Origin: a virus
DNA: 64,000 bases
Reading direction: 5' to 3' (one strand)
IMG/VR virus record: IMGVR_UViG_3300032309_001546
Location: 1-64,000 of that record
Part shown: in pieces, positions 29,582 through 58,689 of the stretch
Position numbering within the stretch: position 1 is the first letter of the stretch
Layout: each line of letters starts with the position of its first letter
Made by a program: the position numbers and the translations under genes
Notes under the pieces: model-generated
Told to the model about the DNA's origin: nothing
What the model saw: the letters and a program-made list of their open reading frames with translations, nothing else
Database searches by the model: none

Positions 29582-30336
29582 TCATTTTCCTTTTTGTCTG
29601 AATACATACTATTGCACTTAGAGTACAGTGGGCATGTTTGTAGTTTACAATTAAAAATTGGTAAGTAGATATTCTTTTTATAAGCAAAAAGAACACTAGC
29701 ATATACGCTATTTAACTTTCTAAGATCTATATCTTTGTCTGTGAAATTCTCTATATTATAATTAGATCCACTTAGATATACAATATATATTTTCTTATTC
29801 CAATGCTTTAGTAGCGGCAAATGAAAGTATGCTGTTTTAATAAACTCTTTTCTTGGTAAGAAACTAAATAGAATGATTGCTTTATCAGTAACTATAGGGA
29901 TAGCAAAATTAACTGTTACTCCTAGACTACTGAATAACTCAACATAATTGATATGTTTTATACTTAGCTCTTGTAGATATGACCGCCATTTGAATATAGA
30001 AAATATAATGTCATTGTTTTTATTATGAAAAATAAAACTATGTCCTGCTTTTCTAAGTAAGTTCTGTGCTATGGAAAATCTTAAAACAATTTCCTCATCA
30101 GATGGGAATAATTGTTTTCTTCCATAGTAGTTTGTTACATACACCATTAAATGATGCAGTAACAGACTATATGGATCTTTGGAAAAATCCCAAGATGGCA
30201 CTCGATCTAGTATTTCATTCCTAAAGTATTCACCACACCGCATAAAGCTTATTAATTGATTAATACTAAGCTCACGAAGCTTAACATTAGTATCAACTAA
30301 TTCATCGATGGGTGCAGAGATCCTAGGCATCGTCAT
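29578..30336 (-). CDS. Cas4/AddB-like Fe-S protein, apparently catalytically degenerate
   Basis: N-terminal 'LSINQLISFMRC' and C-terminal 'CKLQTCPLYSKC' give the 1+3 Cys Fe-S staple; no D...(D/E)xK catalytic motif. Confidence 0.5.
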   Translation of the reverse strand: MTMPRISAPIDELVDTNVKLRELSINQLISFMRCGEYFRNEILDRVPSWDFSKDPYSLLLHHLMVYVTNYYGRKQLFPSDEEIVLRFSIAQNLLRKAGHSFIFHNKNNDIIFSIFKWRSYLQELSIKHINYVELFSSLGVTVNFAIPIVTDKAIILFSFLPRKEFIKTAYFHLPLLKHWNKKIYIVYLSGSNYNIENFTDKDIDLRKLNSVYASVLFAYKKNIYLPIFNCKLQTCPLYSKCNSMYSDKKENE

Positions 30337-32872
30337 CCTCTAATGCCCAGACATCAACGTCTTCTTTCTTGGCATAGTCTTTATTGTTCTTATCATCAGC
30401 CTGGTCTCTGGCATTGACAACCTGAGCAATCTCATAGGTATCAACTTCTTCAAACCAAGAACTCGTAGGATGAAATAGGAAACAGTGAGTGTCCTTATCA
30501 CCTGAGATCTTGTTCTTGCCAATGATTGCCTCAATGACTGGGAACTTCTGGACTACACCAGGACGGCTAACGCTCTTAGTCTCATGGTACCAGTTACTCT
30601 TATCGCCAAATACATGCTTATGATTATAAACGTGTACAATGGCGCTAGCATCGTATCTAAACGCACGAGACTCTGCTAGGCTAGAGTTGGTAGGACGTTG
30701 GTCCTTCTGCCTCTTATTCGAGTCACTGTTATATTCTAGAGTACCACCAATAGCAATGTTGTGACGGACTGAAGCCATCTTAACACGATTAGAGATATCC
30801 TTGAATGCAAGACGCGCATCAGCATTACCAAGTGGAAGCTTATGGATATTATCCAAGTAAGCAAAGATATTATCGCTAGGATACTTCTTACGGAAGCTAG
30901 CAATAGCACGCTCAAAGTCTTCTAGGTTCTGGGCATGTGGAATGCCGAAGAGGACTAGACGTTCTTCGCGGGCCATCTTCATAATCTCTTGATAGCCAAC
31001 CTTGTAAGCATAAAGCATATCTTGCTCTAGCTGAGGATCAATATCCCGAAGGATCTTGCCCCAGTACTTAGGACGAACGATATGATTAATCTCTAGAGGA
31101 AAGCCATCCTCATATCCGCGATAACCACGAGTACGATGACGACCAGCCATGGCTACAAACTTAGGGAACAACTCAGGAACGCTATCGTCAATAGTCATGT
31201 AAAGAACATGAAGATTGTTGTCAGCTTCTGGCAGTGCTAGGTTGTAGCATGTAAAGCTACTGAATGAGCTCTTACCTGCATTCTCTTCGCCGCCAATGCA
31301 AATCATGCGACCTCTTGACCAGTCATTATTAAATGCGCTGGCAAATCCGGGCATGAGTGGCATTTGGAAACCAGGGAACACAGCTTCGAAGGCTTCTGCT
31401 TCATCTTGAAAACGAAGCATTTCCTGAAGATAGAAGTCACCACTGCTAACACTAGTATTAGTATCAGCCTGAATGCTTTCGATCCTGGTCCTGAGACCAT
31501 CAAGAACTGAGATAGCACTGGTAGGATTCTTACGGATATCAAGCATAGCCTGATCAGTAAGGTCCTTTACCTTCTGCTTTTGAGTAAGCTCCTTCTCATT
31601 GACGATATTATCAATCTCTTCAGTAATAGTATTGAAGCTGTAACCAGTCTTCATACTAAGACTACGAGCTAGATCTTCTCGCTCTAGAGGACTATGGAAG
31701 CTAGAGATAAGCTTAATAAGATCAAGCATAACCTCGCGGGATCCATTCTCTCTAGTCAACTCACCAAAGAGCCAGTCAAATGCAGGAACATTTTCAAGAG
31801 TCTTAAATACTTCAATGTCATTAGCCCGGATAAACTCATCCGGATCTAGATCACCGTTTACACGAAGATCTTTTACATAAAGCTTATGGCCGCCTAGCGT
31901 ACTGGCATGTTCTCTGATTGCGTTGATGGTGCATTTAATACCTGCATCATCAGGGTCAAAGCAAAGTACATACTTGCTAGGATTAAGGTTCTTGAGGAGT
32001 CTAGCTTGACCAGGAGTCAGACTTGAGCCACCTGCTGCCACAGTAGCCTTGAGACCATTATGGTAACAGGTAATCGTGCTGCTCTGACCCTCGAAAACAT
32101 AGAGGGTATCAGCTCCTGACTTAATAGCTTGTTTTGCAATCTTATGATTGTAAAGCAAGTTGCTCTTATCAAAGATTGGAACAATGCCACTGGTATTTAC
32201 CCACTTATCCTTGTCACCTTTTTGCCAGGTAATCTTACGAGCTGCAAAGCCAACAGTCCTACCTTTCTCGTCATAGAATGTAGTTACTAGCTTGTTCTGA
32301 GGATCAGCAAACATACTTGTGTCATAGATGCCAAAGCCTTGGTCAGGCCGCTCTTCTCTTAGGTTATCTAGTACGGTAAGACCGTCACTAATCTCAACAT
32401 AGCCAACACCCATCTCAAGCAGCTTATCTGCGTTCCATGAACGTTCTGCAATGTACTTATACAAATCTGGGTGAGCAGTATCAGTAATCTTTGCAAGAGA
32501 TGAGGAGACCTCATGATATACTTGGAAATACTTTTGACGCTCAATTTCTTCTGGGCTTGGCTTACCAAAGTTATAGTCAATGCTGAATAAGTCCGCTACT
32601 TCTTTGGCAATATCAACAAATTCATCACCAGCGAGTTGCCGGCCTGTTCTAATAGCATGGATGTTTAAGGAACTACCATAAAACCCACAGCTAAAACACT
32701 TTACATAGCCACGGTCATCGTAGACATGCATACTAGGATTATGGTCGTCATGATCTGGGTTGACACAAACGACTTTCTTATTCTTTGTAACTTCAACACC
32801 AATCTTCTCAAGGTATTGAGAAACTGGGATTCTATCAACTGTCTCTACTAACTCACTCAGATTTGTAATCAT
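30323..32872 (-). CDS. Fused DNA primase (DnaG-type) and DnaB-like helicase
   Basis: CHC2 finger 'CVNPDHDD...CFSCG', 'VGFAARK', TOPRIM 'FEG...FDPDDAG...DPDE', Walker A 'GEENAGKS', C-terminal 'KNK'. Confidence 0.9.
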   Translation of the reverse strand: MITNLSELVETVDRIPVSQYLEKIGVEVTKNKKVVCVNPDHDDHNPSMHVYDDRGYVKCFSCGFYGSSLNIHAIRTGRQLAGDEFVDIAKEVADLFSIDYNFGKPSPEEIERQKYFQVYHEVSSSLAKITDTAHPDLYKYIAERSWNADKLLEMGVGYVEISDGLTVLDNLREERPDQGFGIYDTSMFADPQNKLVTTFYDEKGRTVGFAARKITWQKGDKDKWVNTSGIVPIFDKSNLLYNHKIAKQAIKSGADTLYVFEGQSSTITCYHNGLKATVAAGGSSLTPGQARLLKNLNPSKYVLCFDPDDAGIKCTINAIREHASTLGGHKLYVKDLRVNGDLDPDEFIRANDIEVFKTLENVPAFDWLFGELTRENGSREVMLDLIKLISSFHSPLEREDLARSLSMKTGYSFNTITEEIDNIVNEKELTQKQKVKDLTDQAMLDIRKNPTSAISVLDGLRTRIESIQADTNTSVSSGDFYLQEMLRFQDEAEAFEAVFPGFQMPLMPGFASAFNNDWSRGRMICIGGEENAGKSSFSSFTCYNLALPEADNNLHVLYMTIDDSVPELFPKFVAMAGRHRTRGYRGYEDGFPLEINHIVRPKYWGKILRDIDPQLEQDMLYAYKVGYQEIMKMAREERLVLFGIPHAQNLEDFERAIASFRKKYPSDNIFAYLDNIHKLPLGNADARLAFKDISNRVKMASVRHNIAIGGTLEYNSDSNKRQKDQRPTNSSLAESRAFRYDASAIVHVYNHKHVFGDKSNWYHETKSVSRPGVVQKFPVIEAIIGKNKISGDKDTHCFLFHPTSSWFEEVDTYEIAQVVNARDQADDKNNKDYAKKEDVDVWALEDDDA

Positions 32873-36863: not shown

Positions 36864-39278
36864 TTACTTTATTAAGGTAATTTTTCCGACTGGGCGAATC
36901 CTTAAGAAATCATCTTTCTTAGTTGCTTTGTAGGAGAAAAATAATAGGGAACAATAGTCAAGCTTTTCTTTCAGTTCTTCGTATTGATCTGAGAACAGCG
37001 TGACTTCTGATATAGAAGATAAATCTTCGATTGTCAATGTTGCCATTAATTTTCCTTTTGATTTACCGCTTTTGATTTGCTGTTCTTTAATATGAGATAC
37101 CGCGACGAGCAGATTGCCTTCGTTGCTATTTGTCTCATCAATATCTTCTATCTGATTAATTAAGATTCCGGGTGGAGTCTTAGTAATATAAGATAGTGGA
37201 TGGCGACTAATAAAGAACTTACAATACTCTGATTCCCACTTAACAATTTGCAGTGGGACTTTATAGTCAGACGTTTTCTTGATAGATTCTAGGTCAGGGA
37301 AAGTAGGCTGATCAGGAACTTTAAGAACTAATGGCTTCTTAGGTCTTGGTTCTGAATACACTTTCTTACCATCTGAGTCTATACTTAAACTAATTACGCC
37401 TGCCTTTAATCTTGCAGACCAATCGTCGAGCAAGGCGGGATAAGCATCTACTTCCTTGTTACGCTCAAAGGCTTGAACTATTCTTGTTTGATAGTTTTCA
37501 ACCTTTGTATAGTAATCAAAGATATCAGAAAGCTTATCTACAAGCTTGACTCTGTCGTAGCCAAAGCTATCGAATGCGCCGACCTTTGCAAGTATACTAA
37601 CAACACCAGAATTAATCTTTGTGCGATTGATTCTAGTAAAGAAGTCAGCCATGCTTGTAAAAGACTTGCGACCGCGTGCCTTAAGTATAAGGTCACTAGC
37701 TTTGTTACCGATGCCATTGATCATGCCAAGGCCAAACAAGATAGTATTGTCATCCAACTTAGTAAAACCAATATCACTATTGTTAATACTAGGTGGAAGA
37801 ATGTTGTAACCCATCTGGCGATACTCGTTGATATATCTGACTAGCTTCTCAGGCTTACCACTTCTGACAGTCATTAGCGTAAGCATAAAGTCTGTAGGAT
37901 AGTAAGTCTTAAGATAAGCATTGAAGTAAGTAATGAAGGCATAAGCAAGAGCATGACTCTTATTAAAACCATACTCAGCAAATGCTGCAATGACATTCCA
38001 AATACGAGTTGCCTCTCCCATATCAATCTTATGAAGACGAGCACAGCCATCTACAAAAAGTGTGCGATATTCTGCCATCAATGTAGCATCTTTCTTGCCC
38101 ATTGCTTTTCTAATCTTATCAGCCTCTTGGAGTGTTACTCCTGCAAGTATCTGACAAGCGGCCATAATCTGTTCCTGATAAATAAGAACACCGCCGGTCT
38201 CAGCAAGTACATCATCAAGTAATGGATGTAACTTATTCTGAGTCTGACGAGTCTTCTTATAGTCAATGTAGTCCTGAAGCAGACCTGAGTCACGAGGACC
38301 AGGACGATTAAGAGCTGAGAAAACTGCAAGATCCTGGACACTCTGTGGCTTGAGATCGGCTACAAGTTTTAGTAGATAAGTCTCTTCCATCTGGAATAAG
38401 CCAGCTGTGAATCCTTTATTGATTAATTCAAACACATTGGGATCATCAGTAGGAACTTCTTCCTCTAGCCACTTGAGTGACTTACCAATACGCTTACAAG
38501 TAAGATCGTTAATTGTAAGGCAATCGATTCTAAGAATGTCGAACTTAATAAAGTTCATTTTCTCTAGAGTTGGACCTTCCCATTGGGTAAGATTGAACCA
38601 GTCTGCGCCTTCAGTCTTGCTCTTCCGGATTGGAATCATCTGATCTACTGGACTTGTGCCAATAAGAACTGCACTAGCATGAACGCTAACTTCCTTTGCT
38701 TGTCCATCTACTGGTCCGCAAAGGCTAAAGATATCTTGATTAGCTTCTACAATCTTTTTGATGTGTTCGCTATTGTCTTCGATTAGTTCTTTATAAGTTA
38801 CATACTTGCCACGGTGACTTTCAGGCAAGCTGTCAGCTAACCGTTCCGCATCGGCAATAGTTCTATATGTGCCATCTGCATGCTTAAGTAACTTAGTGAA
38901 AGCTTTAACGCTTGTCTTAAGAGACCAAGGCTTATAGGTAGATACACGAAGAACACGATCATGACCATACTTAGTTTGCAGTGCCTTGATTAGATCATCA
39001 GCACGAACATTACAAAAGTCAGTATCGATATCCGGGCCTTCGCCATCAACATGATAAGTAACACGCTCATCCGGATTATAAGTGTCAGACAAGCCAAGCG
39101 CATATAGTAATGCAGAGTTACTTTTATTAGCAAGTTTTGCTTTAGACTCAAAGGCCTTGTTGATAAAAGCTAGAGTTTCATCGGTAAGATACCTGACCTC
39201 AAAGTCCAAGTAGTCTTTGCTTATTACATTTAATCTATCATCTGAATAGAATTTATTAAGGTTTTTCTTGTTGATCAT
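36864..39278 (-). CDS. dnaE: DNA polymerase III alpha (DnaE), polymerase core (palm/thumb/fingers/HhH/OB), no PHP domain
   Basis: 'PDIDTDF', 'HASAVLI', 'KFDIL', 'GLFQME', 'ALNRPGP', 'YQEQIM', 'YGFNKSHA.AY', 'FGLGMINGIG' and OB fold 'MATLTIEDL'. Confidence 0.93.
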   Translation of the reverse strand: MINKKNLNKFYSDDRLNVISKDYLDFEVRYLTDETLAFINKAFESKAKLANKSNSALLYALGLSDTYNPDERVTYHVDGEGPDIDTDFCNVRADDLIKALQTKYGHDRVLRVSTYKPWSLKTSVKAFTKLLKHADGTYRTIADAERLADSLPESHRGKYVTYKELIEDNSEHIKKIVEANQDIFSLCGPVDGQAKEVSVHASAVLIGTSPVDQMIPIRKSKTEGADWFNLTQWEGPTLEKMNFIKFDILRIDCLTINDLTCKRIGKSLKWLEEEVPTDDPNVFELINKGFTAGLFQMEETYLLKLVADLKPQSVQDLAVFSALNRPGPRDSGLLQDYIDYKKTRQTQNKLHPLLDDVLAETGGVLIYQEQIMAACQILAGVTLQEADKIRKAMGKKDATLMAEYRTLFVDGCARLHKIDMGEATRIWNVIAAFAEYGFNKSHALAYAFITYFNAYLKTYYPTDFMLTLMTVRSGKPEKLVRYINEYRQMGYNILPPSINNSDIGFTKLDDNTILFGLGMINGIGNKASDLILKARGRKSFTSMADFFTRINRTKINSGVVSILAKVGAFDSFGYDRVKLVDKLSDIFDYYTKVENYQTRIVQAFERNKEVDAYPALLDDWSARLKAGVISLSIDSDGKKVYSEPRPKKPLVLKVPDQPTFPDLESIKKTSDYKVPLQIVKWESEYCKFFISRHPLSYITKTPPGILINQIEDIDETNSNEGNLLVAVSHIKEQQIKSGKSKGKLMATLTIEDLSSISEVTLFSDQYEELKEKLDYCSLLFFSYKATKKDDFLRIRPVGKITLIK

Positions 39279-39570
39279 AATCGTCCAATAAACAATGTTT
39301 AAGAAATACTTGTCTGAAAAGATTTAAAGTTTCCTTTTTCTTCTCAGAGTCACTTGTCCAGTAATGACGAAAAAATAAATACAAAAAAGTAAAGAATGGA
39401 ACTTTATAGATCCAACCTAATTTTTCATGCCAAGTTTGAGTATGGTCTAGCGTAAAACTTTTTACTGGAGAAAAAGTCTCAGTTTCTTTGTTCCAAGTAT
39501 ACTTCTCTTTAAAAACTTTTCTGTAAGATAACTTCTCAGGTGTATATACTATAGACTTTTCATTAGACAT
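39256..39570 (-). CDS. Hypothetical protein inserted between the two dnaE halves
   Basis: About 104 aa from MSNEK; overlaps the stop of the PHP gene and the start of the core gene; aromatic-rich. Confidence 0.55.
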   Translation of the reverse strand: MSNEKSIVYTPEKLSYRKVFKEKYTWNKETETFSPVKSFTLDHTQTWHEKLGWIYKVPFFTFLYLFFRHYWTSDSEKKKETLNLFRQVFLKHCLLDDYDQQEKP

Positions 39571-40846
39571 TTTCAAGCTCTTTAATATCTTCTGAGTAGT
39601 CTAAAGTAATTCGGACTCGACCAGGATTGAGAAAGCGCTCGAACAGCAGACCATGTTTAACAGGATCAAGATGCTTAGCTGTGATTCCTAGTGACCATGA
39701 GATCAAAGATCCACCACCAGAACCACGCGCTGGGCCAACAGGTATACCCATATCCTTAGCTAGGCTAACATAGTCTTGAACGACAAGGAAATAGGAACTA
39801 TACCGTGCCTCGTCAATGACTTGGAACTCATATCTAATTCTATCCTTGTAGGCTTTAGGGACATCAGCCCAGCTCTTTACGCCAAGCCGAGATATAAGAC
39901 CAGCCTTAGCCTTCTTAAGAAGCATTAGGCTTGTCCCCTCAGGCGTCATTCCTTCAAGCTGAAGATTCGGTGCCTTAGTTACTCGCTCAAAGTATGAGCC
40001 ATCTACAAGATCTGCTACATGCTGAGTATTAGTGATTGCTTCATGTGGTAACTGCCAGTCATCACAAAGAGTCTTTGCGAACTCTGCATCATACATCCAA
40101 GCATTATGATCTTGAACTTCATATGGCATTGTGTCTGGAGTCTTATGCATGCTCACACACATAACATAGCTACGCAACTTGTACTGATCTTGGTTCTGAT
40201 GATGAGCATCAGCTGTAAGTACAAGAGGAATATTCTTGCGTTTGCTTAGATCAATTAGATATTGATTGTAACCATACTGCTTTTCAACATTATTATGCTG
40301 AAGCTCTAAGAAGAAGCTGTCGTCGCCGACCGCCTCCTTAACTTCATCACACCATCTATCTATCTTTGCATGTTCACCCCAGTGCCAATACTTAAAGCAC
40401 TGACTACTGATACAAGTACTAGTAGCAATTAAGCCTTTAGCGTGTTGCTTAAAAGTATCTAGATCGATACGAGGATAGCGATAAAAGCCATCTTCATATG
40501 AATACTTAGTAAGCTTCATTAAGTTCTTATAACCTTCTTCGTTCTTAGCAAGTAATAGGAAGTGGCCATTGTTAACTGCTTTCTCGGCTACGCCATTCTC
40601 TGGCATAAAATCAGACTTAGTCTTGGCATCGCCAAAAGCAAGATATGTTTCATTACCAATGATAGGCTTTACGTTAGCAGCACGACAGCCCTTTACAAAT
40701 TCTGGGATGCCACCCATATATCCATGATCTGTCAATGCAACTGCATTCATTCCTCTGGCAGCAACAGTCTTACCCATTTCATCGGCTGGCTGTAAGCCAT
40801 CAAGCAATGAGTAGTAGCTATGCGCATGGAGATGTACCATTCCCAT
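39563..40846 (-). CDS. dnaE: DNA polymerase III alpha (DnaE), N-terminal PHP domain plus start of palm
   Basis: 'HLHAHS.YSLLDG', 'LTDHG', 'GNE', 'GHFLLLA', 'STC', 'DAHH', 'GPARGSGGGSL' and 'LLFERFLNPGR'; start moved to ATG 40846. Confidence 0.93.
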   Translation of the reverse strand: MGMVHLHAHSYYSLLDGLQPADEMGKTVAARGMNAVALTDHGYMGGIPEFVKGCRAANVKPIIGNETYLAFGDAKTKSDFMPENGVAEKAVNNGHFLLLAKNEEGYKNLMKLTKYSYEDGFYRYPRIDLDTFKQHAKGLIATSTCISSQCFKYWHWGEHAKIDRWCDEVKEAVGDDSFFLELQHNNVEKQYGYNQYLIDLSKRKNIPLVLTADAHHQNQDQYKLRSYVMCVSMHKTPDTMPYEVQDHNAWMYDAEFAKTLCDDWQLPHEAITNTQHVADLVDGSYFERVTKAPNLQLEGMTPEGTSLMLLKKAKAGLISRLGVKSWADVPKAYKDRIRYEFQVIDEARYSSYFLVVQDYVSLAKDMGIPVGPARGSGGGSLISWSLGITAKHLDPVKHGLLFERFLNPGRVRITLDYSEDIKELENV

Positions 40847-40889
40847 ATTATTCTCTCGTTTAAGTTTAAAGATTAATAAAACACCAATA

Positions 40890-40918
40890 GGCGACAAGGC
40901 TAAATATAGCCCGCCGCC
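40890..40918 (-). terminator. GC-rich hairpin after phoH (terminator-like)
   Basis: GGCGGC-GGGCTA/TATT/TAGCCT-T-GTCGCC followed by a partially U-rich TATTGGTGTTTTATT. Confidence 0.5.
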
Positions 40919-41854: not shown

Positions 41855-43291
41855 TTACAAAAGTAGTTTGTTGTACCTCTCAAGAAACTCAGATTTAGCA
41901 AATTTTTTGTAATCACTAGGCAGTATTAGATAGAAGTTTTCAGGAATAAGTTCTTTTTGTATTTCAGGAATTATGCCGTCCGTAAAGCAAAGCACTGCAT
42001 CATATTTATATCTTCCGTTGTATTGGCCAATTATTTTTAACGCCGGATTCAAATCTGTGCAGCCACCGCCTTTCCATTCAATCGTCTCTGCAAAGTTCTT
42101 ATTTCTTGCCTTCTCTATGTCTCCTCTCACCTCGCTATCATTCATAACATAATGAACACTAGCATAACTTGCTAGCTTCCTTAAATAAGATACAAACTTT
42201 TCAGCAAGCTGAGTATCAATACTTCCAGAAGTGTCGAAAATACAAGCAATTAGAGGCTTGTCTGATTTCTTAGGACCAGGTAGGATTCCAGGCAAAACTA
42301 CGTTATAGCTTGCCCATGAGACACCTGTCTTGTATCTTTTGCCAGGTCGGTTTAGAGTCTTTAGAAAAAGAACAGCATCTCCTTCGTAAGGTTTTACCTC
42401 AATATTTTTACTGTCAAATTTATCTAATTTCTCGAATGAAAGAAACGGAGTAGTATTAATTTCAACAATTTTTGCAATTTGTTTTTCAATTGAACTAATT
42501 CTTTCATTTTGTTCTTCCTCGGAGATATCACTATCATCAAGGACCATGTCCATACTTAACTGATTTATTTCTTTTTGTTCTTGCTTTTCTATAAAGTCTT
42601 GATAATCGGGACTATTTTTTAGCCAGTTAAAGATTTCTTTAGCTGTAACATTATAGATTCCTTTTCTTAATCCATATTCTGCATGGAACAACTTACTGTT
42701 AGGATGTAAATAGTAAGCAGATAAATCAGGATGAGCAAAAGCAGCTTGCTCATCAATGCGGAAAGCATTGAAGAAAAACTTACCTTGTGCATTCTGCAAA
42801 GGATAATTTACAAAATCACTTGGATCATCTAGTTGAGTAAAAGATTCTACATATTCATAAAGTAACTCAGTATTAATTTTCATGTCCTGAGCAACATTCA
42901 TAAGATAGCGATCTTCAGCTGGGACCTTAAACATAGAAACAGGATGAGCATAAACAAAATGCTTTAGCTCATGTAGCAAGATAAAATAGAAAGTCTTATC
43001 ACTTAATCTGCTAATGTTATCTATGTTAAAGTATAAAGCATATTCTTTAGTACTAGGAGTCCAGGCGATACAAGCTATAAACTCAGGATTAAAACCTTGA
43101 CCTGTAGCTTCTTCTTTGGTTAAGAAGTATCTGTCTAGACAAATCAAGTACTCAGATAGATTAATAAATGTATAAGCAATTGCATATGGGATGTAATCAG
43201 TAATAGGACTGTCTTTGCCCTCCTTGATAGCAATCAAAGAGCGACAAAGATCAGTAATCTTATTAGCGTAAATCTTTTTTAAAGCATCCAT
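41855..43291 (-). CDS. Metallopeptidase-like + VWA domain protein (DUF2201-like)
   Basis: 'LLHELKH...H', 'MNVAQDMKIN'; MIDAS 'DTSGSI', 'GGGCTD' and 'FTDG'. Confidence 0.85.
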   Translation of the reverse strand: MDALKKIYANKITDLCRSLIAIKEGKDSPITDYIPYAIAYTFINLSEYLICLDRYFLTKEEATGQGFNPEFIACIAWTPSTKEYALYFNIDNISRLSDKTFYFILLHELKHFVYAHPVSMFKVPAEDRYLMNVAQDMKINTELLYEYVESFTQLDDPSDFVNYPLQNAQGKFFFNAFRIDEQAAFAHPDLSAYYLHPNSKLFHAEYGLRKGIYNVTAKEIFNWLKNSPDYQDFIEKQEQKEINQLSMDMVLDDSDISEEEQNERISSIEKQIAKIVEINTTPFLSFEKLDKFDSKNIEVKPYEGDAVLFLKTLNRPGKRYKTGVSWASYNVVLPGILPGPKKSDKPLIACIFDTSGSIDTQLAEKFVSYLRKLASYASVHYVMNDSEVRGDIEKARNKNFAETIEWKGGGCTDLNPALKIIGQYNGRYKYDAVLCFTDGIIPEIQKELIPENFYLILPSDYKKFAKSEFLERYNKLLL

Positions 43292-44379
43292 TATTTCTTT
43301 ATATGAAGGCTAATCATTTCATAGAACTCGGGCACAAACTTCTTAGCATAATCTCTTAGATACTTAGTCTGATCAAGTTGTTCCTGTGACATATTAGGAA
43401 TTAGATTTCTATATGTAAAGTAGATGCCAACTAGCTCTGATCTAGAAACATCTGGAGTCTTTAGCCAAGCTTCAAGTTTACCATTATAGAAACTTGCATC
43501 TGCTAGCCAGTCTCTTCCATTTAGAATCTGGAACCATTTAAAGGCAAGATTTGCTTTAACTAATCCGGTAGCTAAGGCAATAATTGCTTCTCTTAGGTCG
43601 CCTGTGATGTTCTGATTATTATTATTAATCTTCCACCACATACACCAAGCAGCAAGCCTAGCAAGTATCTCTATGGTACGAGGACATGGGCTAACTTCCT
43701 TATCAACAGACCAGGTTCCGGTTAGTTGATTATTCTGAAATCCCTCTATTAGATCAGTACTATTATTAAGTATAAAGCTAAAAGCAGGATCTATATGACC
43801 TAACCTTGACTCAAGGAAGGAGTTGGTATCTAGTGCGTAGTGCACATGACTCCATCTAGCTTTCATTGCTTTATCAAGCGTGTCTGTATTGAATTCTCCA
43901 GTAGGTGGGTTACAAGCAGATAGTAAACGACTGACAGGAGGTAGTTTATACTCTCCAAGGCGACGTTCTGCGGTAATACTCATCATTGCATTTATACCTT
44001 CTTGCGTGCCGCGATTTAACTCGTCAGCAAACAGGACATATATACCACTGAGGCTAGCAGGAATCCAAGATGGCCTGGTCTTAGTATGAGTCATATACTG
44101 ATGATCAACAACTGGGATACCCCAGTCAGCTGTGTCAGTATGCGCAAGACGAAGATCATAAAAGGTCTGAGGACCTAACTTATTAATCTTAACACTAGCA
44201 AACTCACTATTACAGAACATAGGAACATCTGCTTTTATATCAGCAAAAAAGCTCCTAGTAGTCTGTTCAATGATTGTACTTTTACCAATACCACTGGCTC
44301 CCCAGACGCAGACAGGAATATCTGCGTCCAGGGAGATTCTAATAGCAAGCTCCAATTGCTTGTTATTAATTGTAGACAT
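43291..44379 (-). CDS. MoxR-like AAA+ ATPase
   Basis: 'WGASGIGKS', 'DLRL', 'LFADELNR', 'ACNPP', 'LDKAMKARW' and 'PCPRT'. Confidence 0.88.
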   Translation of the reverse strand: MSTINNKQLELAIRISLDADIPVCVWGASGIGKSTIIEQTTRSFFADIKADVPMFCNSEFASVKINKLGPQTFYDLRLAHTDTADWGIPVVDHQYMTHTKTRPSWIPASLSGIYVLFADELNRGTQEGINAMMSITAERRLGEYKLPPVSRLLSACNPPTGEFNTDTLDKAMKARWSHVHYALDTNSFLESRLGHIDPAFSFILNNSTDLIEGFQNNQLTGTWSVDKEVSPCPRTIEILARLAAWCMWWKINNNNQNITGDLREAIIALATGLVKANLAFKWFQILNGRDWLADASFYNGKLEAWLKTPDVSRSELVGIYFTYRNLIPNMSQEQLDQTKYLRDYAKKFVPEFYEMISLHIKK

Positions 44380-44381
44380 TT

Positions 44382-45518
44382 TTACTCCTTGTCCGGTGCT
44401 TCCTCAGCGAAAGAAATCTTGCGCTTACGAGACAACGGATATCTGGCATCAAAATGCGCCACACCTAATAGATCACAAAGAGAAGCTCTTGCTCCTGCAT
44501 CGCTTCTAAGGTTTTCAGAAAGATTATTTCTACCTTGAACCTTAAGGCCAATTGCAGGAATCTGTAGCCATGCACCAGCAGCAACGATATGCTTCTGAGC
44601 TAGACCCATAGTAATAAGCGAGTCAACTCGGTCAAGGCCGATACCCCACTTAATGCTAATCTCTACCTCATCCTCAGCACGAGCTGCGCCCTGAGCCTTA
44701 ACAATCTGGACCTTTCTAAGATTCTCTTTGCCATCACCAGGGATAGGAAGAATCTTAAGACGAAGTCTAGCATAATAGCGAATAGCACGACCACCTGTAG
44801 TGATAGTACCACGCGCACCCATTGGAGTAATATTAACTCTCATCTGGTTACTCGTAATAAACGTACAGTCATAGGCCTTATAAGCAGTAGCAAGACGGCC
44901 TAGGACCTTCGAGCTAAGCAAAGCATGCCAACCGATTGCACCATCACCAGCTTCTGCATTAGTATCAGCACTAGCAGGAGGACTAATAGCAGCCCAGCTA
45001 TCTAGAGCAACACATGAAAACATGCCACTGCGAACAAGCTGATCTAGTAACGTAAGAGCTTGCTTGCCATTTTGAGGAAGACTATAAACAAAGCGCTCTT
45101 CGTCTACAGGAACACCAAGGTGTCTTGCATACTCTGAGTCAAAGTTACCTTCCATATCAATGAAAGCAATGCCACGGTCAGGAAAAGTTCTAGCAAAACT
45201 AGCTAGAGCTTCGTACATTAACGTAGTCTTACCAGATGATTCCTCACCAGCAATCTCAATAAAAGTACCACGTGGCCAGCCGGCATTATCACCAAAGCCA
45301 CCAAGTAGACTGTCTAAACAGGGATCACCTGTTGCAACAAAGCTAAATACAGGAAGACTATCTTTGCCAGTGACAAGGATAAGATCTTCGCCGTATTGCT
45401 TTAGCTTACTCATCTTGAATGCATTAAATGTCTTTGCATTCCATGTGCTGGCTCCAGGAGTACTAAAGTTATCTTCATGCTCCCAGTCGCCGTTCACTCC
45501 ATTCATTTCTTCTGACAT
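44382..45518 (-). CDS. recA: RecA recombinase
   Basis: 'GWPRG..IEIAGEESSGKTT', 'AFIDMEG', 'LDSWAA', 'NQMR' and 'TTGGRAIRYYA..RL'. Confidence 0.95.
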   Translation of the reverse strand: MSEEMNGVNGDWEHEDNFSTPGASTWNAKTFNAFKMSKLKQYGEDLILVTGKDSLPVFSFVATGDPCLDSLLGGFGDNAGWPRGTFIEIAGEESSGKTTLMYEALASFARTFPDRGIAFIDMEGNFDSEYARHLGVPVDEERFVYSLPQNGKQALTLLDQLVRSGMFSCVALDSWAAISPPASADTNAEAGDGAIGWHALLSSKVLGRLATAYKAYDCTFITSNQMRVNITPMGARGTITTGGRAIRYYARLRLKILPIPGDGKENLRKVQIVKAQGAARAEDEVEISIKWGIGLDRVDSLITMGLAQKHIVAAGAWLQIPAIGLKVQGRNNLSENLRSDAGARASLCDLLGVAHFDARYPLSRKRKISFAEEAPDKE

Positions 45519-48255: not shown

Positions 48256-48675
48256 TTAGTCAGTTTCCCACTCGTCTGAGGTGCTAGCCTTGGGCGCAAC
48301 CTTACCAGGTGCGGGCTTCTTCGCAAGATATGCGTCAGGAACACTGCTCTTCGTAGCTGGCTTACCTGCAGCAGGCTTAGCAGCTGACGATGGCGAGCGA
48401 GTCGAACCGCCCGTCTGGCTCTCATACTCATCGACAAGCGCCTGCTTGATGTCAGCAAGGAATTGACCGCTCTCCTTAGGAGCAATAATCGTATCTTCAT
48501 ATGCCTCACCGCGCTTAGCGCTTGGAGCACCAGCAAATAAGCCGTTCTTTCCGTTGACTACCTTCCATCCCTTAAGGATAAGTTCGCCATCATCAGTTAC
48601 AAGGGTTACGTCACCCATAGCGACAACAGGACCAGTAGGATTACTAAGGGGGTTTACACGAACTCTAATTTCCAT
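48256..48675 (-). CDS. spoVG: SpoVG-family nucleic-acid-binding protein with a flexible linker and acidic tail
   Basis: 'MEIRVRV...VAMGDVTL...LILKGWKVVNGKNGLFAGAPS.K...YEDTIIAP'; C-terminus 'STSDEWETD'. Confidence 0.85.
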   Translation of the reverse strand: MEIRVRVNPLSNPTGPVVAMGDVTLVTDDGELILKGWKVVNGKNGLFAGAPSAKRGEAYEDTIIAPKESGQFLADIKQALVDEYESQTGGSTRSPSSAAKPAAGKPATKSSVPDAYLAKKPAPGKVAPKASTSDEWETD

Positions 48676-49197: not shown

Positions 49198-49746
49198 CTA
49201 TCCTTCGGGTAAATAAGTTATAAATAAGTTGCCATTAGAATGGTTAAAATTATAAGGAATGCCATGTTGGTCCACAGGTTTCATCCCCATTGCTTGAAAG
49301 AAATAGGGATTGTAACCATATGGATCTTTGAATCTACTTAAGTGGTTGCGAAGCTCTCCAGCTACATATGGACTGTTAGTATAGATCCTAAGTTTTGTTC
49401 CTGTCATTAAGCTATTGAATCCTAAGCCCCTAGTATACTGTTTAAGTGCAAGACTTGCAAGTAAAAAAGTAGTCTTAGTGTAAATGTCATAGCCCTCAGG
49501 AAGCAACTCTTCATATTTATAGACAAAGAAATCTGTTTTGTCCATATCTATATTTGGACCTTCGGTGGATCCATATCTATAAATAACCATCTTCTCTGTG
49601 TCATCAAAGAATAGGCCAATATGAGTCCACAAGCCAGATCTATATGGGAAGCCAGGTATCGGATTGAAGCCATATCCAAAAGAAAAGGCTATAGTCCAGA
49701 TATAAGTTCGAATTTTATCTAATACTTTATAATAAAAATTCTTCAT
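49198..49746 (-). CDS. Hypothetical protein (weak RNase H-like segment)
   Basis: 182 aa; 'KLRIYTNSPYVAGEL' resembles the RNase H 'v.IyTDS.YV' strand. Confidence 0.5.
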   Translation of the reverse strand: MKNFYYKVLDKIRTYIWTIAFSFGYGFNPIPGFPYRSGLWTHIGLFFDDTEKMVIYRYGSTEGPNIDMDKTDFFVYKYEELLPEGYDIYTKTTFLLASLALKQYTRGLGFNSLMTGTKLRIYTNSPYVAGELRNHLSRFKDPYGYNPYFFQAMGMKPVDQHGIPYNFNHSNGNLFITYLPEG

Positions 49747-49754
49747 AGTAGATC

Positions 49755-50282
49755 TTACTTCTTAGGATCTCTTTCGCGCTGTAGATCAAGATGTAGGCCA
49801 GTCATATAGATGCTAGCAGTCCGGCATAGATTGATAAAGATATCCATCTCTCCTGATGTCATTGACGTAGAGATACTATCACCAGCCTCATTGCGCATCG
49901 TAAGCATGTAAGTACCTAGATACTTATCTACGCCACTCTGGAATGTAAGCTTCTTGACATTATCCTCGCTTGCGCCAGGCGGAACGTGAATAAGGTTTAG
50001 AGTTTGACGTTGTGATGTGTCAACCCAGCCATTCATTACACCGTTGTAAAAGCTAAGGATCTGGTAGATATCGTTAATGCCTACGGCAAAAACAATCTTA
50101 TTACCCCAATCAAAGGTGTTATGGCCACCTTCGTTCTTGCCACCAGTTGCACGGGCAAACTGGAGATACACTGCGCCTTCCTTTTCTACTTGCTTACCGT
50201 AGTCACTATCTTTAGTGGTTACTGGAATGTAAGAGATCTGGAGTGCGCTACTTTTCTTGACAATCTGAAATTGCTTTGACAT
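49755..50282 (-). CDS. Whirly-like ssDNA-binding protein
   Basis: Collinear with plant Whirly motifs: KKSSAL~KGKAAL, EGAVYLQFA~EG.VMLQFA, FDWGNKIVFAV~YDW.RKQVFSL, HVP~HDP, MTSGEM~VTKAEF, YMTGL~YLLGW. Confidence 0.75.
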   Translation of the reverse strand: MSKQFQIVKKSSALQISYIPVTTKDSDYGKQVEKEGAVYLQFARATGGKNEGGHNTFDWGNKIVFAVGINDIYQILSFYNGVMNGWVDTSQRQTLNLIHVPPGASEDNVKKLTFQSGVDKYLGTYMLTMRNEAGDSISTSMTSGEMDIFINLCRTASIYMTGLHLDLQRERDPKK

Positions 50283-50316
50283 TTTTCCTCTTTTGTTCTA
50301 ATTATTTCCTACAATA

Positions 50317-57097: not shown

Positions 57098-58171
57098 TTA
57101 TCTCACTAGTGAAGTGTTATTTTCAGATGTAATACTAGGTGAACAAATAAGCTTTGTTGCACTTTGAAATTCAGCAAGTGTATGGCTATTAGTATAGCTC
57201 ATAGCACTACGTAGGTTACCTTCAATGCCCTTGAGCAAGTCAACAACAGGTTCGGTCATAGGTATAAGGCCAGCTTGCCCTTCAATACTACTCTTATTGT
57301 TATAAGAGCTGCTTGCAAGACCTGCATATTCCTTGTACCAGACTCCAGTGCTTTCATTAAGTACGGCAGTAGCTGCACTTTCTGGAGTAGCGGCCAACAT
57401 CTTACCCAACATAACAAGATCTGCACCAGATGCAAGAGCTTTGCAAATGTCACCATTGGTACGAATACCACCATCAGCAACAATATAAGCAGGAGCTGCT
57501 ACGTCTTTTGGATAGGTATAAAGCAAACGCTTACGCTCTGCGCTGCAGCGAGCAAGGGTTGTGATATTACCTGCACCTACTCCAGTATTAATGCGAGTAG
57601 TGCATGCGCTGCCACCGCCAATGCCAACACGAACATAATCGCATAGACTAGCAATACGGCTATAAGCAAGTTCGTTTGTTACATTGCCTGCCCAGATGAA
57701 GACACCTTCGTCAAAGCGAAGATCTTGTAGCTTGATTAGATAGTCATAAAGGCTATCAAGATTACCATTAGCAATGTCAACTAGGACATGTGCAATTTCA
57801 TACTCGCTTACTTTATGAAGCAACTTATCAAGTGGATAGTCAAGGCCAATGCTAATGCCACAGCCTCGCATATACATCTCATCTAGCTCATGCTCAGGCC
57901 TGAATCTATCAGCAAAGATAGCAAATGGCCTATAAGTGGAGTCAGTGATTGCATCCATAAAGGCGTGACTAGCAATGCTTGGCATAGGACTAGCAACAAT
58001 TGGCAAAGCATCAAAAGGTTTCTGATAGTAACCATTCTCATTCCTATGATATGGATTAATATTAGCTCCATATCGGCTATTAATATCGGATACTGGCGCT
58101 TGATTAAGCAAAACGTCATCATAGGTAAGCTGATAATTAGCAGCTACCGCATCCTCAAACTTAAAAAACAT
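57098..58171 (-). CDS. GMP reductase / IMP dehydrogenase family protein (no CBS domains)
   Basis: 'LTYDDVLL', 'VDIANG', 'AGNV', 'RVGIGGGSACTTR', 'VADGGIR..GDI.KAL..GA', 'EG' and 'LRSAMSY'. Confidence 0.9.
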   Translation of the reverse strand: MFFKFEDAVAANYQLTYDDVLLNQAPVSDINSRYGANINPYHRNENGYYQKPFDALPIVASPMPSIASHAFMDAITDSTYRPFAIFADRFRPEHELDEMYMRGCGISIGLDYPLDKLLHKVSEYEIAHVLVDIANGNLDSLYDYLIKLQDLRFDEGVFIWAGNVTNELAYSRIASLCDYVRVGIGGGSACTTRINTGVGAGNITTLARCSAERKRLLYTYPKDVAAPAYIVADGGIRTNGDICKALASGADLVMLGKMLAATPESAATAVLNESTGVWYKEYAGLASSSYNNKSSIEGQAGLIPMTEPVVDLLKGIEGNLRSAMSYTNSHTLAEFQSATKLICSPSITSENNTSLVR

Positions 58172-58173
58172 TT

Positions 58174-58689
58174 TTACTCCGCGAAACGAGACAGGTCCAA
58201 AGTTCTACGGACCATATGAACACTCTTCTCAATATCTTTTACACCAGGAAAGAACATCCTGTCAAATATTTCTTCAACAAGCTTTGCATCAAAGTCTTTG
58301 CATGAATAAACATCAGCCGTAACAAATCCTTGCTCGGGAAATGTATGAAAAGCAATGTGAGATTCTGCAATCATAGCAATAGTGCTATAGCCATAAGTTT
58401 GTTCAGCACGCTCCTTGAGAGCATTCGAAATAAACTGAGCAGTAGCAGAGTCAGCAAGACCCTCAGCGCCTAAACGCTGAAGGACTCGCTCAAGTTCGCA
58501 CTTGTTATGTGGGAATTCTATAGTAAGTGGAGGAACAATTAATGTCATATCAATTGCATCTACAAGGGCTGAAACAACTTTATGACCCATACTAGGATCA
58601 TTAAGAGGATTTAATCTATCAGTTGATGGGACTGACTTAGCGCCAGCATCATAAATTAAATGTAAACCATTGTATTTGTAGTTAGACAT
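58174..58689 (-). CDS. speD: Pyruvoyl-dependent S-adenosylmethionine decarboxylase-like protein
   Basis: 'GLHLIYD', processing site 'IAESHIAFHTFPE' and 'ADVYSC'. Confidence 0.85.
   Translation of the reverse strand: MSNYKYNGLHLIYDAGAKSVPSTDRLNPLNDPSMGHKVVSALVDAIDMTLIVPPLTIEFPHNKCELERVLQRLGAEGLADSATAQFISNALKERAEQTYGYSTIAMIAESHIAFHTFPEQGFVTADVYSCKDFDAKLVEEIFDRMFFPGVKDIEKSVHMVRRTLDLSRFAE

What the first reader, a model, noticed from the sequence alone, without database searches (positions are those of the whole stretch)
49755..50282. Plant-type Whirly ssDNA-binding protein in a phage
Seen: the 175-aa protein matches the Whirly domain motif by motif and in order (KKSSAL~KGKAAL, EGAVYLQFA, FDW.NK.VF, H.P, KKL, T.GEM, Y..G). 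The comparison is to Whirly sequences recalled from memory. Known: Whirly proteins are PC4-fold tetrameric ssDNA binders, best known from plant and algal organelles, where they limit illegitimate recombination. Several organellar replication proteins (Twinkle, single-subunit RNAP) are of phage origin. Inference: this may be a phage SSB or recombination modulator, and it bears on where plant Whirly came from.
Basis: partly seen in the sequence, partly recalled or inferred. Interest (0 to 1): 0.8.

Follow-up and report, generated by a model that had tools for sequence, protein, structure and literature searches.

The report
True Whirly protein in freshwater phage
[quoted passage not shown] It is probably a helper in phage DNA recombination and repair, not the main SSB, and it is one more member of a phage Whirly group that databases and this scan had already flagged.

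Summary
A 175-aa ORF on the minus strand at 49755-50282 is a true Whirly-family protein. It scores above the Pfam PF08536 threshold. A profile of its 57 metagenomic relatives matches all solved plant Whirly structures over their full length (E 1e-18 to 1e-21). A confident AlphaFold model has plant WHY1, PBF-2 and WHY2 as its 13 best structural matches. A homotetramer is predicted (0.94 against 0.00 for controls). Purifying selection is extreme (dN/dS 0.005-0.03).

It is not the phage's main SSB, because the same genome has a canonical OB-fold SSB with an acidic ...EDGDGF tip. The gene sits in a conserved block (ThyX, Whirly, unknown gene, SpoVG-like, class II RNR), 4 kb from a phage RecA. The genome also carries RusA, an Mre11-like nuclease, a ligase, UvdE and a spore-photoproduct lyase. 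My best reading is an accessory ssDNA binder for RecA-dependent recombination and repair, but this is inferred, not shown.

On a rough tree this lineage is not the sister of the plant and algal clade, so the origin question stays open. UniProt already auto-labels one uncultured phage protein "Whirly". This scan had already found phage Whirlies in at least seven other genomes, including a near-identical phage. No paper I could search discusses them.

The parts
49755..50282 (-). Whirly-family gene, 175 aa (P0001). It has no transit peptide, no plant-type C-terminal extension and no acidic SSB tip.
   Evidence: ORF. PF08536 E 6.8e-8, above cut-off. Profile against plant Whirly structures, E down to 3.5e-21. 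AF2 pLDDT 93.7. Foldseek top 13 all plant Whirly, TM 0.66-0.74. Tetramer score 0.94 against 0.00 for controls. dN/dS 0.005-0.03.
50286..50290 (-). Shine-Dalgarno-like GAGGA, 3 nt upstream of the ATG.
   Evidence: Read directly from the sequence.
49198..49746 (-). Conserved downstream gene of unknown function, 182 aa. It starts 8 nt after the Whirly stop codon and may be a co-translated partner.
   Evidence: Homologues at 29% and 27% identity lie directly after the Whirly gene in relatives whose Whirly is 48% and 43% identical. Junctions are 2 nt and an 8-nt overlap. No Pfam or PHROG hit. AF2 pLDDT 46.8, so no usable fold.
48256..48675 (-). SpoVG-like gene, 139 aa. A SpoVG gene lies one or two genes downstream of Whirly in this phage and in all four related loci examined.
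   Evidence: PF04026 E 1.2e-6, 29.0 bits, just under the cut-off of 29.6. SpoVG is also one or two genes downstream of Whirly in L010, L011, L012 and L020.
44382..45518 (-). Phage RecA, the proposed functional partner. This is context, not shown to interact.
   Evidence: PF00154 E 2.6e-41. RecA was also found in all 3 other Whirly-bearing virus records searched.

Best explanation
The gene encodes a true member of the Whirly family (two beta-beta-beta-beta-alpha repeats). [quoted passage not shown] The phage has its own OB-fold SSB with an acidic docking tip, so the Whirly protein is probably an accessory ssDNA binder. I propose that it coats resected or displaced strands during recombination-dependent replication and DNA-damage repair, discourages stray microhomology annealing, and helps the phage RecA carry out strand exchange. 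My odds: family membership and fold about 0.95; tetramer about 0.8; single-strand nucleic-acid binding about 0.8; accessory role in RecA-linked recombination or repair about 0.45. Homology, fold, selection and context are shown here. Binding, oligomer state and the RecA link are inferred.
For: Family and fold: PF08536 is above its cut-off, and all 57 aligned relatives match PF08536. The profile matches 1l3a, 4koo, 4kop, 4koq and 3n1h over their full length at E 4e-18 to 3.5e-21. The AF2 model has pLDDT 93.7 with the expected strand and helix order. Foldseek's top 13 hits are plant Whirlies, followed by MRP1/2 and Pur-alpha. Residues invariant or nearly invariant across the phage family (W59, K62, H99, K110, E145) align with the plant YDW, K, FHDP, K and AEF positions.

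Tetramer: complex prediction gave a score of 0.94 against a best control of 0.00. The mark was reached by 20 of 30 solved homo-pairs and 1 of 23 single chains. Runs agree in at least 97% of contacts and partner pLDDT is at least 89. The interface runs through helices 69-86 and 142-173.

A real, constrained gene: 40 synonymous against 0 nonsynonymous differences to L003, and dN/dS of 0.005-0.033.

Accessory rather than main SSB: a canonical SSB (PF00436, E 1e-28) ending in ...FVFEDGDGF lies at genome position 89387-89881. The complete 176-kb relative has two SSBs.

Recombination and repair context: RecA lies 4.2 kb away. The phage also has an Mre11-like phosphoesterase, a split DnaE and a DnaG-DnaB primase-helicase, RusA, and ATP-dependent ligase, UvdE and spore-photoproduct lyase, plus UDG. 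The 3 other Whirly-bearing virus records searched all carry both RecA and SSB, even two fragments only 24% and 43% complete.

Plant precedent: Whirlies bind resected ssDNA and limit microhomology-mediated rearrangements (PMC3245945). Purified WHY1, WHY2 and WHY3, but not canonical mtSSBs, stimulate RecA strand exchange (preprint 10.64898/2026.10.24.761589).

The family is mildly basic: median pI 8.6, with 46 of 57 members above 7.
Against: There is no experimental data on any phage Whirly. The RecA link is by neighbourhood and co-occurrence in only four records. Three of these form two sets of relatives, and the background frequency of RecA in large phages was not measured. The whole region is a long syntenic DNA-metabolism block, so proximity is weak evidence. 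[quoted passage not shown] Plant-style higher-order coating may therefore not apply. Whirly-fold proteins can prefer RNA, as ChmC does (PMC11077065), and the conserved neighbour is a SpoVG-like protein, a family I recall (not checked here) as binding both DNA and RNA. The tetramer prediction may simply reflect the model's memory of solved plant tetramers (caveat stated).
Confidence: 0.55

Rival explanations
1. It is mainly an RNA-binding protein that regulates or chaperones phage transcripts. Precedents are the Whirly-fold ChmC of nucleus-forming jumbo phages, trypanosome MRP1/2, and the RNA-binding activity of maize WHY1.
For: ChmC is a Whirly-fold homotetramer that prefers ssRNA (Kd 58 nM against 184 nM for ssDNA) and is needed for infection (PMC11077065). 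MRP1/2 and Pur-alpha are the next structural matches after plant Whirlies. A SpoVG-like gene is a conserved near neighbour in four lineages. The phage has its own sigma factor and, according to an earlier unchecked note, a giant RNA polymerase-like protein.
Against: By sequence it belongs to the plant Whirly family proper, whose solved complexes and best-studied activities involve ssDNA (PMC3245945). It has no detectable similarity to ChmC-bearing phages: tblastn against 50,697 phage records found nothing. It lacks the disordered N/G-rich tail that ChmC uses to form condensates. Its neighbours are DNA-precursor and DNA-repair genes.
Confidence: 0.2
2. It is a DNA-organising or protective protein. 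It could compact or coat phage or host DNA, as WHY1 does in plastid nucleoids, or hide ssDNA intermediates from host defence sensors that detect single strands.
For: Plant WHIRLY1 is an abundant nucleoid protein that shapes nucleoid structure (PMC9070903 and the abstract of 10.1101/2024.05.06.592765, listed). Bacterial Shedu and Menshen defence systems use sPC4/Whirly-fold domains as presumed ssDNA sensors, so single strands are a known target in the phage-host conflict. Extreme purifying selection fits an abundant structural binder.
Against: There is no direct evidence. No defence or anti-defence genes were recognised next to the gene. The lysine needed for plant 24-mer assembly and cooperative coating is absent.
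Confidence: 0.15
3. It is the phage's principal replicative SSB, standing in for an OB-fold protein.
For: It lies in the replication and nucleotide-metabolism block, within about 20 kb of the DnaE and primase-helicase genes. Whirlies bind ssDNA at nanomolar affinity (PMC3245945).
Against: The genome encodes a canonical SSB with a bacterial-type acidic tip. The complete relative has two SSBs. The Whirly protein ends in a basic ...QRERDPKK and has no docking tip.
Confidence: 0.05

Closest known systems
Plant and green-algal Whirly proteins (StWHY1/PBF-2 p24 1L3A; StWHY2 3N1H; AtWHY1-3 4KOO, 4KOP, 4KOQ; Pfam PF08536)
   Same: Homologous over the whole domain. Same two-repeat fold (TM 0.66-0.74). 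Same predicted helix-mediated tetramer. The same core residues are conserved: the YDW tryptophan, the following lysine, the FHDP histidine and the AEF glutamate. A direct phmmer search from the phage protein reaches Edaphochlamys and Mesostigma Whirlies at E of about 2e-4.
   Different: Only 14-22% identity to the solved plant proteins. No transit peptide and no plant C-terminal extension. The KGKAAL motif reads KKSSAL, with Ser in place of the lysine needed for 24-mers. There is a roughly 12-residue insertion after helix 1, shared only with its closest relatives. It is encoded by a phage next to phage RecA, SSB and RusA. On the tree it falls outside the eukaryotic clade.
Uncharacterised phage Whirly-family proteins in metagenomes (for example UniProt A0A6J5NR37, 'Whirly transcription factor [uncultured Caudovirales phage]')
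   Same: Same family: 75 clusters at 50% identity match at E <= 1e-3, and all 57 aligned members hit PF08536. Most are small stand-alone proteins of about 140-180 aa. Every genomic context examined was a large phage with PhoH, class II RNR, dUTPase or rIIB. A0A6J5NR37 is 33% identical with TM 0.82.
   Different: This gene belongs to a distinct six-member sub-clade (support 100) with the helix-1 insertion and, in its own lineage, the KKS variant of the motif. None of these proteins has been studied experimentally.
ChmC of Chimalliviridae jumbo phages (PhiPA3 gp61, PhiKZ gp67)
   Same: A phage-encoded Whirly-fold homotetramer that binds single-stranded nucleic acid (PMC11077065).
   Different: ChmC has beta-beta-beta-alpha repeats and no detectable sequence similarity to Whirly or other known proteins. 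It prefers RNA, carries a disordered condensate-forming tail, and works at the phage nucleus. The protein here is a sequence-level Whirly member, has no such tail, and found no match in deposited phage genomes.
Bacteriophage T5 PC4-like protein (4BG7) and bacterial PC4-like ssDNA binders (YdbC, SP_0782)
   Same: The same PC4-like superfamily of ssDNA binders. The T5 protein is implicated in recombination-dependent replication (PMC7549692).
   Different: Those are single-repeat proteins that form the fold as intermolecular dimers ('type II'). This protein carries both repeats in one chain ('type I') and is predicted to tetramerise. They did not appear among the significant Foldseek matches.

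Membership tests
Whirly family (Pfam PF08536) | Sequence match to the family model above the curated threshold, over most of the domain | tested here: met
   E 6.8e-8 and 32.9 bits against a cut-off of 23; protein residues 8-147 match model positions 2-131 of 136. Six-frame search of the genome gave the same single locus.
Whirly family (Pfam PF08536) | Reciprocal homology to the experimentally solved plant Whirly proteins | tested here: met
   The profile of 57 relatives matches 1l3a at 3.5e-21, 4koo at 3.9e-20, 4kop at 2e-19, 4koq at 2.2e-19 and 3n1h at 4.2e-18, all over nearly full length. The next hits have E > 0.7.
Whirly family (Pfam PF08536) | Two tandem beta-beta-beta-beta-alpha repeats (type I PC4-like fold) | tested here: met
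   AF2 model with pLDDT 93.7. The first repeat has six predicted strands (5-67) followed by helix 69-83. The second has four strands (94-141) followed by helix 143-161. Foldseek's top 13 hits are all plant Whirlies, TM 0.66-0.74.
Whirly family (Pfam PF08536) | Homotetramer held together by the helices | tested here: met
   In silico only. Score 0.94 against a best control of 0.00 (mark reached by 20 of 30 solved homo-pairs and 1 of 23 single chains). Contact agreement between runs at least 97% and pLDDT at least 89. Interface residues 69-86 and 142-173. The result may reflect memory of solved plant tetramers.
Whirly family (Pfam PF08536) | KGKAAL motif, including the second lysine (StWhy2 K67) needed for 24-mer assembly | tested here: not met
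   The protein has V-K-K-S-S-A-L. The first K, the A and the L are kept, but the second lysine position is Ser11. The relatives P0010 and P0011 keep KGK. This motif is a hallmark of land plants, not of the family as a whole: algal Whirly-like proteins also lack it (PMC9070903).
Whirly family (Pfam PF08536) | High-affinity binding of single-stranded DNA with little sequence preference | not testable with these tools
   Needs purified protein (EMSA or fluorescence polarisation). The only supporting data are a mildly basic family (median pI 8.6) and conserved core residues.
Bacterial or phage OB-fold SSB (PF00436) | OB fold with an acidic C-terminal docking tip | tested here: not met
   There is no PF00436 match in this protein and its tail is the basic ...QRERDPKK. 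The true SSB of this phage is elsewhere and ends in ...EDGDGF.
ChmC (Chimalliviridae RNA-binding protein) | Sequence kinship to ChmC, beta-beta-beta-alpha repeats and a disordered N/G-rich tail | tested here: not met
   tblastn against 50,697 phage records found no match. The model has no long disordered tail.

The most novel reading that the evidence does not exclude
Phage Whirlies are the ancestral pool from which the green lineage took its organellar Whirly gene, as it took Twinkle and the T-odd-type RNA polymerase. In that case the Whirly-RecA partnership now seen biochemically in plant organelles was inherited from a phage recombination module like this one. This phage carries true homologues of three plant organellar genome-maintenance factors side by side: Whirly, RecA and a DnaG-DnaB primase-helicase.
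Probability: 0.2. Interest if true: 0.8.

Novelty: new member of a known kind. Interest (0 to 1): 0.45.

Why it matters
Plant papers up to 2026 describe Whirly proteins as plant-specific (PMC9070903, PMC11359715, preprint 10.64898/2026.10.24.761589). This gene belongs to a sizeable group of true Whirly proteins, at least 75 clusters at 50% identity. Every genomic context I examined for this group was a large uncultured phage, in each case among DNA-metabolism genes; RecA and a canonical SSB were looked for only in the four virus records searched and were found in all four. This offers a simple, transit-peptide-free system for studying how Whirly tetramers work with RecA and SSB. It also makes the origin of the plant family a testable phylogenetic question. 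For phage biology it adds a non-OB single-strand binder to the recombination and repair toolkit. This particular copy adds little beyond what the scan already found in a near-identical phage. What it does add is the Ser-for-Lys change in the assembly motif and the conserved link to a SpoVG-like gene.

Tried and rejected
1. DNA (megablast) and tblastn searches of 50,697 GenBank phage records found nothing, using the window region and three different family members (P0001, P0026, P0034). No cultured or deposited phage in that collection carries a detectable relative.

2. PHROGs gave no family for the Whirly protein or for nine of the ten neighbours tested; the SpoVG-like protein hit one function-unknown PHROG.

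3. The search for related loci failed with the full alignment, which had no sufficiently conserved stretch. It found nothing with P0016, P0014 or P0034 in viral contigs. The genome-contig scan with the sub-clade alignment found no bacterial or archaeal copy.

4. The word-indexed search with the family alignment did not reach plant sequences. Eukaryotic sequences were obtained instead from two algal hits.

5. I tested the downstream 182-aa gene as a possible partner or annealase, a lead from earlier notes about Rad52-like neighbours in other phages. It has no Pfam or PHROG hit. The AF2 model has pLDDT 46.8 and is unusable. The ESM Atlas gave only a weak RNase H lead at 0.87. The gene that follows Whirly in the distant locus L020 is not homologous to it. 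Its function remains unknown.

6. Pfam gave nothing, even at E <= 1, and PHROGs gave nothing. Not supported.

7. A promoter and terminator scan around the gene found nothing above the shuffled background.

8. The Cappadocia 2010 and 2013 structural papers are not held, so individual DNA-contact residues could not be checked.

9. A second SSB like that of the complete relative was not found in the held 146 kb, which is 84% of the genome.

Full report
**What is there.**
The coordinates hold a complete 175-aa ORF on the minus strand, with ATG at 50282 and TAA at 49755-49757. The plus strand is closed by stops. A GAGGA motif lies 3 nt upstream of the start.

The window is the first 64 kb of a 145,919-bp IMG/VR virus record, linear and estimated 84% complete. 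Near-identical genes (99-100% at protein level) occur in IMG/VR contigs of 174-176 kb, one of them rated 100% complete. The phage carries a Baseplate J-like gene, as contractile-tailed phages typically do (my inference), and seven tRNA genes. It has no close cultured relative; its DnaE is at most 31% identical to anything in GenBank phages.

**Is it a Whirly protein?**
Yes, by every test available.
- Pfam PF08536 matches at E 6.8e-8 and 32.9 bits (cut-off 23) over model positions 2-131 of 136.
- An exhaustive HMMER search found 75 cluster representatives at E <= 1e-3, most of them small stand-alone proteins of 140-180 aa. All 57 that I aligned hit PF08536.
- A profile of that alignment matches the solved plant proteins over their full length: PBF-2 p24 at 3.5e-21, AtWHY1 at 3.9e-20, AtWHY2 at 2e-19, AtWHY3 at 2.2e-19 and StWHY2 at 4.2e-18. 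Nothing else scores below E 0.7.
- The AlphaFold2 model is confident (pLDDT 93.7, pTM 0.86) and shows two beta-sheet-plus-helix repeats.
- Foldseek's first 13 PDB matches are all plant Whirlies (TM 0.66-0.74), followed by trypanosome MRP1/2 and Pur-alpha.
- Residues invariant or nearly so across the phage family (G36, W59, K62, H99, K110, E145) line up with conserved plant positions.
- The direct single-sequence search even reaches the Whirlies of the green algae Edaphochlamys and Mesostigma at E of about 2e-4.

**Tetramer.**
Four copies folded together scored 0.94, against 0.00 for the best of three controls. The mark was reached by 20 of 30 solved homo-pairs and by 1 of 23 single chains. Runs agree in at least 97% of contacts and pLDDT is at least 89. 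The interface is formed by helices 69-86 and 142-173, as in plant Whirly tetramers. Plant tetramers are solved, so this result shows likeness and does not prove assembly.

**It is a working gene.**
Against five relatives, the gene shows 40-73 synonymous but only 0-20 nonsynonymous differences, giving dN/dS of 0.005-0.033. The genome holds a single copy.

**Differences from plant Whirlies.**
- There is no transit peptide and no C-terminal extension.
- The tail is basic (...QRERDPKK), so there is no bacterial-SSB-type acidic tip.
- The KGKAAL hallmark reads KKSSAL. [quoted passage not shown] The nearest relatives at 48% and 43% identity keep KGK.
- A roughly 12-residue insertion follows helix 1 in this sub-clade only.

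**Context.**
The gene lies in a long minus-strand block of DNA-metabolism genes.
- Within the window: RusA; a DnaG-DnaB primase-helicase, a sigma factor, an Mre11-like phosphoesterase and a split DnaE; PhoH, RecA at 44382-45518, class II RNR, a SpoVG-like protein, ThyX, UDG and a GMP-reductase-like enzyme.
- Beyond the window: ATP-dependent ligase, spore-photoproduct lyase and UvdE, and a canonical SSB (PF00436, E 1e-28) ending in ...FVFEDGDGF.

The order ThyX, two unknowns, Whirly, a conserved 180-230-aa unknown, a small unknown, SpoVG is kept in relatives whose Whirly is only 48% and 43% identical. In a much more distant phage, whose Whirly is 31% identical, the order is PhoH, small ORF, Whirly, unknown, SpoVG ... 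class II RNR. Other family members also sit in large phage contigs next to PhoH, dUTPase, RNR or rIIB. The three other Whirly-bearing virus records I could search all have both an OB-fold SSB and a RecA, even though two are fragments.

**How it most likely works.**
- Shown: homology, fold, selection, context and the presence of a separate canonical SSB.
- Inferred: the protein is a tetrameric, largely sequence-independent single-strand binder. It acts alongside the replicative SSB rather than in place of it, most plausibly on recombination and repair intermediates together with the phage RecA.

The plant precedent is direct. Whirlies bind resected ssDNA and suppress microhomology-mediated rearrangements (PMC3245945). 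A 2026 preprint reports that purified WHY1, WHY2 and WHY3, but not canonical mitochondrial SSBs, stimulate RecA strand exchange (10.64898/2026.10.24.761589). The phage's heavy investment in UV and break repair fits this role.

The rivals are an RNA-binding role like that of ChmC (PMC11077065), a DNA-organising or ssDNA-shielding role, and, now unlikely, the main SSB.

**Phylogeny.**
I built a quick maximum-likelihood tree of 82 sequences: 9 named eukaryotic Whirlies, 8 further metagenomic sequences (6 of them retrieved with the algal query) and 64 metagenomic relatives found with the phage protein, plus the query itself.
- The named eukaryotes, together with six of the metagenomic sequences retrieved with the algal query, fall in one clade (support 97).
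- The query sits in a six-member clade (support 100) inside a 51-member metagenomic group.
- A second metagenomic clade of 14 is separated by a starred branch.

This lineage is therefore not the sister of plant Whirlies. Without a root, the direction of any transfer cannot be told. I left out partial matches, a repeat protein (P0077) and near-duplicate rows.

**What is already known.**
Plant reviews and the 2026 preprint call Whirly plant-specific. I found no paper in the held library that discusses phage members of PF08536. However:
- BFVD/UniProt holds A0A6J5NR37, automatically named 'Whirly transcription factor [uncultured Caudovirales phage]', 33% identical with TM 0.82.
- Whirly-fold proteins are described in phages and bacteria: ChmC, the T5 PC4 homologue, the Shedu and Menshen sensor domains.
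- This scan had already reported phage Whirlies in at least seven other genomes, including the same protein in a near-identical 176-kb lake phage.

**Verdict.**
This is a new member of a known kind. It is of moderate interest as a group-level finding, but adds little as a single instance.

Noticed in passing
window 48256-48675 (-); also L010 7808-8245, L012 6732-7115, L020 9052-9432: A SpoVG-like gene lies one or two genes downstream of the Whirly gene in four phage lineages whose Whirly proteins are only 31-48% identical to this one. This may be a conserved pair of non-OB nucleic-acid binders.
   Followed up: partly
window 36864-39278 (-), 39256-39576 (-) and 39563-40897 (-): The DnaE-type polymerase is split. 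PHP plus the start of the pol III alpha domain sit in a 444-aa ORF. The rest (alpha, finger, HhH) sits in an 804-aa ORF. A 106-aa ORF bridges the junction, which could be an intein or intron remnant, or a true split.
   Followed up: no
G000:C1 64153-71067 (loci L016 153-1319, 2359-3417, 5898-7067): An unusually rich DNA-damage repair set for a phage: ATP-dependent DNA ligase, radical-SAM spore-photoproduct lyase and UvdE UV endonuclease, next to adenylosuccinate synthetase. The same phage also has UDG, RecA, RusA and an Mre11-like nuclease.
   Followed up: partly
window 41855-44379 (-) and G000:C1 74804-77462 (L016 10804-13462): Two separate pairs of MoxR-like AAA ATPase plus DUF2201 VWA/metallopeptidase genes in one phage genome.
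   Followed up: no
window 30323-32872 (-): An 849-aa DnaG-primase/DnaB-helicase fusion with Twinkle or T7 gp4-like architecture. With RecA and Whirly, this is the third gene in this phage with a plant organellar counterpart.
   Followed up: no
window 57098-58171 (-), 58174-58689 (-): A GMP reductase/IMPDH-family gene and an S-adenosylmethionine decarboxylase-like gene lie side by side. They look like auxiliary metabolic genes.
   Followed up: no
G000:C1 89387-89881 (-) (L017 5387-5881): The canonical phage SSB ends in ...NFVFEDGDGF, a variant of the bacterial SSB acidic tip. A tRNA-Arg(UCU) gene is called 29 nt downstream of its stop (genome 89283-89358), within a predicted 144-aa ORF. The complete 176-kb relative has a second SSB gene that is not present in the held 146 kb.
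   Followed up: partly
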